From NCBI GenBank assembly GCA_012557565.1, contig GCA_012557565.1_3926.1: 64,000 nucleotides of DNA; one strand, 5' to 3'. Shown in pieces: positions 27,947-28,029 of this stretch (its first letter is position 1; every line of letters starts with the position of its first letter). The DNA is from a phage. Made by a program: the position numbers and the translations under genes. Under the pieces are notes generated by a model, which did no database searches, was not told the origin of the DNA, and was given only the letters and a program-made list of their open reading frames with translations.

Positions 27947-28029
27947 ATGGGACGATGTTAAGACACTAAGGCATGTGCGTAAGCCTCCAAAACTTACTCA
28001 AAGGGGTTCGAATCCTCCGTCCCATGCCA
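27947..28029 (+). tRNA. tRNA-like gene, identity undetermined (no canonical anticodon arm found by hand)
   Basis: Perfect acceptor ATGGGAC/GTCCCAT, T-loop TTCGAAT and encoded CCA, but no 5-bp/7-nt anticodon arm recognisable. Confidence 0.35.

What the first reader, a model, noticed from the sequence alone, without database searches (positions are those of the whole stretch)
27947..28029. tRNA-like gene with perfect acceptor stem and T-arm but no recognisable anticodon arm
ATGGGAC...GTCCCAT-G-CCA with a canonical TTCGAAT T-loop flanks an 83-nt body in which I could not find a 5-bp stem/7-nt loop anticodon arm; the best internal helix (GTAAG/CTTAC) closes a 9-nt loop. It could be a pseudo-tRNA, a tRNA with an expanded anticodon loop (frameshift-suppressor-like), or a tRNA-like regulatory RNA. 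The tRNA-Met-like gene at 26187-26263 is similarly atypical (1:72 mismatch).
Basis: seen in the sequence. Interest (0 to 1): 0.4.

Follow-up and report, generated by a model that had tools for sequence, protein, structure and literature searches.

The report
Hidden, oversized tryptophan tRNA in phage
The odd 83-base gene is a conserved but misshapen tryptophan tRNA (anticodon CCA, seven extra bases near the D arm) that standard tRNA finders miss, so Felix O1-like phages thought to lack a tryptophan tRNA probably carry one.

Summary
The sequence features are real and sit at the stated coordinates in a 25-tRNA cluster of a Felix O1-like (Ounavirinae, Mooglevirus-type) phage. ARAGORN and the Rfam tRNA model do not call the gene. 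The claim of "no anticodon arm" is wrong. The inner seven bases of the 9-nt loop are CUCCAAA, the tryptophan anticodon loop (CCA), flanked by a C·A non-pair that the ARAGORN-called tRNA-Trp of Erwinia phage phiEa21-4 shares. The real anomaly is about 7 extra nucleotides between the acceptor stem and a 3-bp D stem. A likely eighth acceptor pair and a 4-bp T stem would give an 8/4 layout. Seventeen distinct homologues support all four helices by covariation: 9 of 19 pairs show double compensatory changes and 98.5% of cells are paired. The anticodon loop, D-loop GG, T loop, G73 and encoded CCA are conserved. All E. coli TrpRS identity elements are present. Roughly 230 GenBank phage records appear to carry the gene, and no listed record annotates it. 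Related phages carry a short 71-nt Trp tRNA or a canonical one instead. The best reading is a divergent, probably functional tRNA-Trp; expression and charging are untested. It is a new variant of a known kind, of moderate interest.

The parts
27906..27934 (+). Probable sigma-70-type promoter, TTGACA-17 nt-TAAGCT. The expected start is near 27941, leaving a leader of about 6 nt for RNase P to remove.
   Evidence: TTGACA-N15-19-TAnnnT is enriched in the window (27 sites against 7.9 expected) and this is one of those sites. The 47 bases upstream of the gene are 91-98% identical in phages that carry a different Trp allele. The stricter scan did not list it, because its -10 hexamer matches only 3 of 6; that scan listed GTGATA-18-TATAGT ending at 27946 instead. 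Function is inferred.
27947..28029 (+). The whole gene: an 83-nt tRNA-Trp(CCA)-like RNA with the CCA end encoded.
   Evidence: Searches give the sequence. Searches give a covariation-supported cloverleaf. In some searches the best matches of family model R1 outside the family are ARAGORN-missed short-D-arm Trp(CCA)-like tRNAs (43.9 and 39.0 bits), a tRNA-Arg(TCT) (41.2 bits) and the annotated phage tRNA-Trp (38.2 bits).
27947..27954 (+). Acceptor stem, 5' strand (AUGGGAC plus G8). Seven pairs are certain. The eighth, G8 with C at 28018, is predicted.
   Evidence: Pairs 1:72 and 2:71 covary (AU, GU, GC; UA, CG). RNAalifold adds the pair G8-C, which is present in all 17 sequences but invariant. 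The single-sequence MFE fold also forms it.
27955..27963 (+). Oversized connector AUGUUAAGA between the acceptor and D stems, where canonical tRNAs have 2 nt. This is the main anomaly, amounting to about 7 extra nt.
   Evidence: It is invariant in all 17 distinct homologues. It is also invariant in loci found through the promoter alone or through the 3' half alone. The CM alignment to the canonical phiEa21-4 tRNA-Trp places the length difference in this D region.
27964..27977 (+). D arm: a 3-bp stem (CAC with GUG) and an 8-nt loop UAAGGCAU carrying the GG dinucleotide.
   Evidence: The middle pair switches between A-U and U-A and the third pair between C-G, U-G and U-A. The GG is invariant.
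27979..27997 (+). Anticodon arm: the stem GUAAG/CUUAC and the loop C-CUCCAAA-A. The anticodon CCA is at 27987-27989, U33 at 27986 and A37 at 27990.
   Evidence: Four of the five stem pairs show double compensatory changes. Variants seen are GTAAG/CTTAC, GACGG/CCGTT, AACGG/CCGTT, GTAGG/CCTAC, GTAAG/CTTGC and ACTTG/CAAGT. U33, C34, C35, A36 and A37 are invariant.
28003..28017 (+). T arm: a 4-bp stem GGGG/CCUC and the loop UUCGAAU.
   Evidence: The first pair covaries (G-C to U-A in the Moogle/Sf13 type). In the T loop, UUC, the fifth base (A) and G.U pair 2 of the stem are conserved.
28018..28029 (+). Acceptor 3' strand (C plus GUCCCAU), discriminator G73 (28026) and the encoded CCA (28027-28029).
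   Evidence: G73 and the first two bases of the CCA are invariant; the terminal A is missing from one row only because that sequence (L138) was cut one base short. According to PMC12135181, G73 is the major acceptor-end determinant for bacterial TrpRS.

Best explanation
This is the phage's own tryptophan tRNA (anticodon CCA, reading UGG), derived from an ordinary phage tRNA-Trp by about 7 extra nucleotides in the D region. The old 5' D-stem strand became a long single-stranded connector, and a new 3-bp D stem formed further along. The inferred mechanism has four steps. It is transcribed from the conserved promoter just upstream, as the first gene of a run of tRNAs (Trp-like, Ser, Leu, Lys and so on). 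RNase P cuts at 27947 and the encoded CCA at 28029 is exposed. Host TrpRS charges it, because that enzyme reads the anticodon and the acceptor end rather than the D arm. It then serves in translation during infection. The 12-bp acceptor/T arm is probably built as 8+4 rather than 7+5. What is shown: the conserved cloverleaf, the Trp identity set, the homology to phage tRNA-Trp, and the mutually exclusive distribution with other Trp tRNA forms. What is inferred: expression, processing, charging and decoding.
For: (1) In 17 distinct homologues 98.5% of helix cells are paired, against 87% in shuffles and at most 52% in slid controls. Nine of 19 pairs carry double compensatory changes. RNAalifold finds the same fold unaided. 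(2) The anticodon stem changed at 4 of 5 pairs while U33-CCA-A37 stayed invariant. The D-loop GG, T-loop UUC..A, G73 and the encoded CCA are also conserved. (3) Every E. coli TrpRS identity element listed in PMC12135181 is present: C34 C35 A36, G73, A1:U72 and G5:C68. That paper's text never mentions the D arm. (4) The top outside-family matches of family model R1 are two ARAGORN-missed short-D-arm Trp(CCA)-like tRNAs (L196 at 43.9 bits, L197 at 39.0), a tRNA-Arg(TCT) (41.2) and the annotated tRNA-Trp of phiEa21-4 (38.2). The phiEa21-4 gene shares the C-CUCCAAA-A loop and is called Trp by ARAGORN. (5) Distribution is complementary. The window has tRNAs for 18 amino acids plus a Tyr-like gene and no other Trp candidate. 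The Sf14 paper lists 26 tRNAs for 19 amino acids with no Trp tRNA among those shown. Arno18 has no other Trp candidate. Phages without the 83-nt form carry a 71-nt Trp tRNA at the same locus behind the same promoter or a canonical one elsewhere in the cluster. (6) The position is right for expression: a few bases downstream of a conserved promoter-like site and 13 nt upstream of tRNA-Ser.
Against: No expression, processing or aminoacylation data exist for it. A 9-nt acceptor-D connector and a 3-bp D stem should disturb the tertiary core of a normal tRNA (U8-A14, the position 9 triple); I know of no proven elongator tRNA built this way, and that statement rests on memory. The gene scores below every threshold of the tRNA models. 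The two most divergent members have imperfect acceptor stems: one bulged nucleotide in Arno18 and two mismatches in L138. The surrounding intergenic DNA is about as conserved as the gene among close relatives, 0.94 against 0.94-0.95, so conservation alone proves little. The covariation rests on only a handful of independent lineages.
Confidence: 0.55

Rival explanations
1. It is a tRNA-derived RNA that is expressed and kept under selection but no longer works in decoding. It might act as a decoy or sponge for TrpRS or for a tRNA-targeting host nuclease, as a regulator, or as a processing (RNase P) entry point for the downstream tRNA transcript.
For: The fold is conserved yet strongly non-canonical. 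The inserted connector is invariant wherever the gene is found, which hints at a sequence-specific partner. Divergent members keep the core but have flawed acceptor stems. Mukai et al. report irregular tRNAs that are inactive in translation and may be regulatory (PMC5389517).
Against: A processing signal would not need the anticodon loop, G73 and the minor TrpRS elements to stay conserved. Every related lineage examined keeps some CCA-anticodon tRNA, whether long, short or canonical, which fits a decoding need. The invariance of the connector is partly an artefact of how the homologues were found; only Arno18 was found without it in the search pattern.
Confidence: 0.25
2. It is a dead tRNA-Trp gene, damaged by a 7-nt insertion or duplication, that persists only because these phages are closely related.
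For: The tRNA models fail on it. Other degenerate tRNA-like relics lie in gaps of the same cluster, at 26847-26924 and 29494-29565. Flanking spacers are as conserved as the gene. The acceptor stems of Arno18 and L138 are flawed.
Against: Neutral decay does not produce paired double substitutions in 9 of 19 pairs together with 98.5% pairing. It also does not leave a stem changed at 4 of 5 pairs around an unchanged anticodon loop. The gene is retained across Felixounavirus, Mooglevirus, Pectobacterium phages and two unclassified metagenomic lineages.
Confidence: 0.1
3. It is a recoding tRNA. The 9-nt loop or the altered D region would let it read UGA (as the Hirsh D-arm suppressor of tRNA-Trp does, from memory) or a four- or five-base codon.
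For: The loop closed by the 5-bp helix is 9 nt long, and its flanking C and A (or C) never form a Watson-Crick pair in 17 sequences. The D region is abnormal.
Against: The same C-CUCCAAA-A arrangement occurs in normal-length Trp tRNAs of related phages that ARAGORN calls with a 7-nt loop. UGA ends 15 of 64 long ORFs in the window, an ordinary share, and TGG usage is ordinary at 10.7 per 1000 codons. No candidate recoding site was found.
Confidence: 0.05

Closest known systems
Bacterial-type tRNA-Trp(CCA), in particular the annotated tRNA-Trp of Erwinia phage phiEa21-4 (Ounavirinae, Kolesnikvirus)
   Same: They share the anticodon loop CUCCAAA flanked by C and A, G73 and A1:U72. They also share a UUCGAAU T loop, GG in the D loop, and residence in a phage tRNA cluster. 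The annotated phiEa21-4 tRNA-Trp is among the top outside-family matches of the family model, at 38.2 bits; ARAGORN-missed short Trp(CCA) tRNAs and one tRNA-Arg(TCT) score slightly higher.
   Different: The window gene is 83 nt rather than 76. It has a 9-nt connector instead of U8-A9, a 3-bp D stem, and a T stem of 4 pairs with A.C where pair 49:65 would be. It is not detected by ARAGORN or RF00005.
Short 71-nt tRNA-Trp allele of wV8, phiSUSP1 and Sf19-type phages (annotated tRNA-Trp, pseudo or OTHER)
   Same: It occupies the same locus behind the same promoter. It also has anticodon CCA, G73 and an abnormal D arm.
   Different: Its D arm is reduced (3-bp stem, 5-nt loop) rather than expanded, and its layout is the normal 7/5. 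It passes the Rfam tRNA threshold at 32.6-33.2 bits. An ORF follows it that is annotated HNH endonuclease in wV8 and hypothetical protein in other records.
(8/4) tRNAs and allo-tRNAs (Mukai et al. 2017, PMC5389517)
   Same: Those are non-canonical cloverleaves with a 12-bp acceptor branch split 8+4. They are found in bacteria and in phage tRNA clusters, are often missed by standard tools, and some are active in E. coli translation. Here RNAalifold predicts 8 acceptor pairs and 4 T-stem pairs.
   Different: The published 8/4 species are Ser, His, Cys and Sec types, with a long variable arm and/or a Sec-like long D stem and tetraloop. None is Trp and none is described with a long acceptor-D connector. 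The eighth pair here is invariant, so it is not proven.
Stable tRNA-like RNAs encoded in the phage T4 tRNA cluster (species 1 and 2, also called RNA C and D); recalled from memory, not checked here
   Same: They are small RNAs in a phage tRNA operon with tRNA-like ends and no assigned function.
   Different: The present RNA has a full four-arm cloverleaf with a standard Trp anticodon loop and the TrpRS identity elements.

Membership tests
tRNA (general cloverleaf) | Four helices (acceptor, D, anticodon, T) maintained in evolution | tested here: met
   98.5% of cells paired and 9 of 19 pairs with compensatory double changes. Slid controls reach at most 52%.
tRNA (general cloverleaf) | Canonical dimensions: 2-nt connector (positions 8-9), 4-bp D stem, 5-bp T stem | tested here: not met
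   the connector is 9-10 nt, the D stem 3 bp and the T stem 4 bp (with A.C at 49:65, or an 8/4 layout).
tRNA (general cloverleaf) | Recognised by standard models (RF00005 at 29 bits or more; ARAGORN) | tested here: not met
   there is no RF00005 hit even at E<=10 on a 106-nt stretch, and ARAGORN is silent.
tRNA (general cloverleaf) | Elbow elements: GG in the D loop and a T loop of the form UUCRANY | tested here: met
   GG is invariant, and UUC and the fifth T-loop base (A) are invariant.
Bacterial tRNA-Trp | Anticodon CCA in a loop with U33 and purine 37 | tested here: met
   CUCCAAA at 27985-27991, with U33, C34, C35, A36 and A37 invariant in 17 sequences.
Bacterial tRNA-Trp | 7-nt anticodon loop closed by a Watson-Crick 31:39 pair | tested here: not met
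   the flanking bases are C and A (C and C in Arno18) and never form a standard pair. The ARAGORN-called tRNA-Trp of phiEa21-4 has the same feature.
Bacterial tRNA-Trp | TrpRS determinants: G73 (major), A1:U72 and G5:C68 (minor) | tested here: met
   The sequence is, and the list of determinants comes from PMC12135181. Some relatives have G1.U72 or G1-C72.
Bacterial tRNA-Trp | Expressed, end-processed, charged with tryptophan and used on the ribosome | not testable with these tools
   This needs tRNA-seq, Northern blots and charging assays. No such data were found in the literature searches.
(8/4) tRNAs and allo-tRNAs | 12-bp acceptor branch built from an 8-bp acceptor stem and a 4-bp T stem | tested here: inconclusive
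   predict the pair G8-C, which is present in 17 of 17 sequences, while the alternative A.C pair is never standard. Both columns are invariant, so there is no covariation test.
(8/4) tRNAs and allo-tRNAs | Long variable arm and/or a Sec-like long D stem with a tetraloop | tested here: not met
   the variable region is 5 nt, and the D stem has 3 bp with an 8-nt loop.
tRNA pseudogene | Helices decay without compensation and functional loops drift | tested here: not met
   the changes are compensated and the anticodon loop is invariant.

The most novel reading that the evidence does not exclude
This is a translationally active natural tRNA-Trp with an 8/4 acceptor branch and a 9-nt single-stranded acceptor-D connector. 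It has replaced the canonical form in most Felix O1-like and Moogle-like phages because the remodelled core is adaptive. For example, the change might let the phage tRNA escape a host nuclease or factor that recognises the body of tRNA-Trp, or let phage factors tell it apart from the host's single tRNA-Trp. The repeated remodelling of the D arm in this subfamily (long, short and canonical forms) would then reflect an arms race.
Probability: 0.15. Interest if true: 0.7.

Novelty: new variant of a known kind. Interest (0 to 1): 0.45.

Why it matters
Felix O1-type phages are classic typing and biocontrol phages of Salmonella, E. coli, Shigella and Citrobacter. Their published tRNA inventories omit this gene: the Felix O1 table skips the region and the Sf14 study counts 19 of 20 amino acids. 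If the RNA is charged and used, these phages carry tRNAs for all 20 amino acids. E. coli translation would then tolerate a tRNA with a 9-nt acceptor-D connector and a probable 8/4 arm. That would be useful for tRNA engineering and would warn that tRNA finders under-count phage tRNAs. If the RNA is not used in translation, it is a conserved tRNA mimic with an unknown partner. Either outcome can be tested directly in easy host-phage systems.

Tried and rejected
- **Standard detection.** ARAGORN and Rfam at permissive thresholds on 6 kb and on 106 nt gave no tRNA call. The only hit was a weak tRNA-Sec match at 18.5 bits. I rejected tRNA-Sec because the anticodon is CCA, there is no long variable arm, and the score is far below the gathering score of 47.
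- **Coding potential.** The gene starts with ATG GGA CGA TGT TAA, and 20-27-aa ORFs overlap it. Arno18 has GCG in place of the start codon and there is no ribosome-binding site, so I rejected a coding role.
- **Cellular origin.** A scan of 185,579 genomes with a linker-plus-T-arm pattern gave 18 hits. Two looked faintly tRNA-like (an Arsenophonus MAG and a delta-proteobacterial MAG), but they score 15-17 bits and ARAGORN finds nothing there. I treat them as chance.
- **UGA recoding.** Stop-codon use is ordinary, so I rejected this as unsupported.
- **Linker pairing with the anticodon stem.** GUUAAG could pair with the 3' strand CUUAC only in the window type. It cannot in the Felix type (CCGTT), so the pairing is not conserved.
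- **Alternative D stems.** AUG(9-11)/CAU(26-28) and AUGU/AUGU are not supported by the covarying T-to-A change at position 30.
- **Linker as an internal extended -10 promoter (TGnTAAGAC).** Possible -35 spacing is inconsistent between the window, L108 and L138, so I dropped the idea.
- **Tandem 8-mer duplication as the origin of the insert.** TTAAGACA and CTAAGGCA match at 6 of 8 positions. This is suggestive only and too short to test.
- **Conservation profile against flanks.** It was uninformative, because the spacers are as conserved as the tRNAs in this closely related set.
- **Literature.** No paper found describes this gene.

Full report
**Context.** The window is part of a Felix O1-like myovirus (Ounavirinae). 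The closest GenBank records are Mooglevirus phages of Shigella, Citrobacter and Escherichia. ARAGORN finds 25 tRNA genes on the + strand between 25939 and 31167. They cover 18 amino acids; Trp and Tyr are missing. The finding lies in the 260-nt gap between tRNA-Arg(TCT) at 27705-27781 and tRNA-Ser(TGA) at 28043-28132.

**The observation.**
- The acceptor strands are ATGGGAC (27947-27953) and GTCCCAT (28019-28025).
- They are followed by G at 28026 and CCA at 28027-28029.
- The T loop TTCGAAT is at 28007-28013.
- The helix GTAAG/CTTAC encloses the nine bases CCTCCAAAA.

ARAGORN does not call the gene. The Rfam tRNA model gives no match at E<=10, either in a 6.2-kb scan or when only 106 nt are searched. 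The best related hit is the tRNA-Sec model at 18.5 bits, far below its threshold of 47. The single-sequence fold is not unusually stable (z = -1.0). One correction applies: the T stem has four pairs (one of them G.U), not five.

**What the anticodon arm really is.** The inner seven bases of the 9-nt loop are CUCCAAA. That is C32, U33, anticodon C34 C35 A36, A37 and A38, the tryptophan anticodon loop. The two outer bases are C and A and cannot form a standard pair. The annotated tRNA-Trp of Erwinia phage phiEa21-4 is of ordinary length and ARAGORN calls it. It reads ...CGGC CUCCAAA ACCG..., the same C-CUCCAAA-A arrangement. Other relatives have it too. The "expanded loop" is therefore a lineage trait of Ounavirinae Trp tRNAs. 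It is not what makes this gene unrecognisable.

**Homologues and covariation.** BLAST finds the element in 259 phage records, of which about 230 carry the whole gene. They include Felixounavirus (Felix O1 itself at 26528-26608), Mooglevirus and four Pectobacterium phages. Scans of viral and metagenomic contigs added more lineages (L108, L116, L138).

I aligned seventeen distinct sequences (A1). With the four-helix structure, 98.5% of cells are paired, against 87.4% in column shuffles and at most 52% when partners are slid. Nine of 19 pairs show changes on both sides. RNAalifold predicts the same helices without being told.
- The anticodon stem occurs as GTAAG/CTTAC, GACGG/CCGTT, AACGG/CCGTT, GTAGG/CCTAC, GTAAG/CTTGC and ACTTG/CAAGT, while U33-CCA-A37 never changes.
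- The D stem switches between CAC/GTG and CTC/GAG.
- The T stem switches between GGGG/CCTC and TGGG/CCTA.
- Pair 1:72 is A-U, G.U or G-C.

Invariant or nearly invariant features include the D-loop GG, the T-loop UUC and its fifth base (A), G73 and the encoded CCA. This is the signature of an RNA selected for a tRNA fold, not of a decaying pseudogene. One caveat is that the sequences fall into only a handful of lineages, so the number of independent events is modest.

**Where the abnormality lies.** Downstream of the D arm the gene has normal dimensions. [quoted passage not shown] Instead of U8-A9 there is GAUGUUAAGA, followed by a 3-bp D stem with an 8-nt loop. Model R1, built from the family, aligns the canonical phiEa21-4 tRNA-Trp with its gaps in this D region.

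The connector resembles the 5' half of an ordinary D arm (GUUUAA in phiEa21-4 against GUUAAG here). My inference is that about 7 nt were inserted in the D loop, possibly by duplication of an 8-mer, since TTAAGACA and CTAAGGCA match at 6 of 8 positions. The old 3' D-stem strand then re-paired with the inserted bases.

G8 can pair with the C at 28018, whereas the alternative partner of that C, an A, never forms a standard pair. Both MFE folding and RNAalifold choose an 8-bp acceptor stem and a 4-bp T stem. This is the 8/4 layout described for some bacterial and phage tRNAs by Mukai et al. (PMC5389517). Both columns are invariant, so the pair cannot be tested by covariation.

**Evidence that it is the Trp tRNA.**
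1. The top outside-family matches of R1 are two ARAGORN-missed short-D-arm Trp(CCA)-like tRNAs (L196 at 43.9 bits, L197 at 39.0), a tRNA-Arg(TCT) at 41.2 bits, and the phiEa21-4 tRNA-Trp at 38.2 bits. Three of these four are Trp(CCA) genes, so Trp-type tRNAs dominate the top, although one unrelated tRNA also scores high.
2. The determinants of E. coli TrpRS reported with the co-crystal structure are the anticodon triplet and G73 (major), and A1:U72 and G5:C68 (minor). That paper's text never mentions the D arm (PMC12135181). All four determinants are present here.
3. The distribution is complementary.
   - Phages with the 83-nt gene have no other Trp candidate. This holds for the window and for Arno18. 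The Sf14 paper lists 26 tRNAs for 19 amino acids, with no Trp tRNA among those shown.
   - About 23 phages (wV8, phiSUSP1, Sf19 and others) lack the 83-nt gene. At the same locus, behind the same promoter, they carry a 71-nt Trp(CCA) tRNA with a shrunken D arm. An ORF follows it that is annotated HNH endonuclease in wV8 and hypothetical protein in other records. That tRNA is annotated variously as tRNA-Trp, pseudo or OTHER, and it passes RF00005 at about 33 bits.
   - Kolesnikvirus-like phages and L203 have a canonical Trp tRNA elsewhere in the cluster.
   - Two further lineages (L196, L197) have 71-72-nt short-D-arm versions that ARAGORN also misses.

Every lineage examined keeps a CCA-anticodon tRNA, while the D arm is remodelled repeatedly.

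**Expression context.** TTGACA-17-TAAGCT at 27906-27934 belongs to a promoter-like class that is enriched in the window, with 27 sites against 7.9 expected. The 47 bases upstream of the gene are 91-98% identical even in phages with the other allele. Transcription would start near 27941, leaving a short leader for RNase P. The stricter scan listed a different, overlapping candidate that ends at 27946, so the exact start is uncertain. No terminator-like site lies between this gene and tRNA-Ser.

**Against a working tRNA.** No experimental data exist. A 9-nt connector and a 3-bp D stem should perturb the tertiary core. The two most divergent copies have a bulged nucleotide (Arno18) or two mismatches (L138) in the acceptor stem. 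Among close relatives the flanking spacers are as conserved as the gene. The connector is invariant everywhere, including in promoter-anchored and 3'-anchored searches. However, only Arno18 is an unbiased distant test of that invariance. These points keep a non-decoding role alive (a decoy, a regulator or a processing element).

**Rivals tested.** Recoding has no support. UGA terminates 15 of 64 long ORFs and TGG usage is ordinary. A cellular origin was not found. No paper found describes the gene. Felix O1's own tRNA table skips the region, and none of the GenBank rows displayed annotates a tRNA over it.

**Verdict.** The gene is real, conserved and unannotated. It is most likely the phage's tRNA-Trp in a non-canonical body, with about 7 extra nt in the D region and a probable 8/4 arm. 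It is a new structural variant of a known kind. I give 0.55 to "functional Trp tRNA", 0.25 to "selected but non-decoding tRNA mimic", 0.10 to "pseudogene" and 0.05 to "recoding tRNA". Interest is moderate: the gene fills a reported gap in well-studied phages and offers an easily tested natural oddity of tRNA architecture.

Noticed in passing
window 27443-27704 (tag-like frame 27523-27558): A strong promoter-like site (TTGACA-17-TATAGT, 27443-27471) precedes a noncoding stretch of about 230 nt. That stretch contains GCA AAC GAT AAT GTT TTT CTG GCA GTA GCT TAA TAG, which reads ANDNVFLAVA** and closely resembles a tmRNA tag (the E. coli tag is ANDENYALAA, from memory). The frame and its double stop are kept in 55 fetched loci. 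phiEa21-4 has ANDAQFLAVA** with synonymous differences. ARAGORN called a permuted tmRNA with this tag on the Moogle locus (L045) but not on the window. Rfam tmRNA models hit only weakly (31.3 and 13.6 bits, below threshold). I saw no tRNA-like domain. This may be an undescribed phage tmRNA-like RNA.
   Followed up: partly
window 27848-27883: TAAGGAGGTGGTC is complementary, with one G.U, to 13 nt of the 16S rRNA 3' end (the rRNA sequence is from memory). A hairpin follows it (ATGTTT-CCA-GAGCAT). The motif is kept and the hairpin covaries in the distant lineages L138 and L108. No conserved ORF follows. Its function is unknown.
   Followed up: partly
RF00005 did not report it in the 6-kb scan. 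A mismatched 1:72 pair recalls initiator tRNA (from memory). I saw no run of three G-C pairs in its anticodon stem, though I did not check this formally.
   Followed up: partly
window 26498-26581: A Tyr(GTA)-like tRNA is missed by ARAGORN and scores 22.8 bits on RF00005. Its position (between tRNA-Asn and tRNA-Asp) and anticodon match the 'Pseudo (Tyr)' of Felix O1's table and the Tyr_GTA counted in the Sf14 paper.
   Followed up: no
window 26847-26924 and 29494-29565: Two more tRNA-like relics with good T arms lie in gaps of the cluster. The first scores 30.9 bits on RF00005, above the gathering score, has a CUUAUAA loop (anticodon UAU) and was missed by ARAGORN. The second scores 18.2 bits.
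   Followed up: no
L006 739-1143, L092/L093 591-995 (phiSUSP1, typing phage 8, wV8): A 405-nt ORF immediately follows the short 71-nt Trp allele; it is annotated HNH endonuclease in wV8 and hypothetical protein in the other records. Phages with the long allele lack that ORF at this position. This looks like homing-endonuclease-driven replacement of a tRNA-region allele, as described for T4 SegB (from memory).
   Followed up: partly
L196 7221-7291, L197 7356-7427: Two Ounavirinae-like viral contigs (terminase 62-63% identical) carry 71-72-nt Trp(CCA) tRNAs with a 3-bp D stem, a 5-nt D loop and the same C-CUCCAAA-A loop. ARAGORN does not call them, and it finds no other Trp tRNA in those loci.
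   Followed up: partly
L149 23959-24044 (Erwinia phage phiEa21-4): An unannotated 86-nt tRNA-like element lies in the gap after tRNA-Arg(TCT). It has a 6-7-bp acceptor stem, a T arm with GGTTCGAATCC and a G-CCA end, but no obvious anticodon arm. It scores 18.9 bits with model R1.
   Followed up: no
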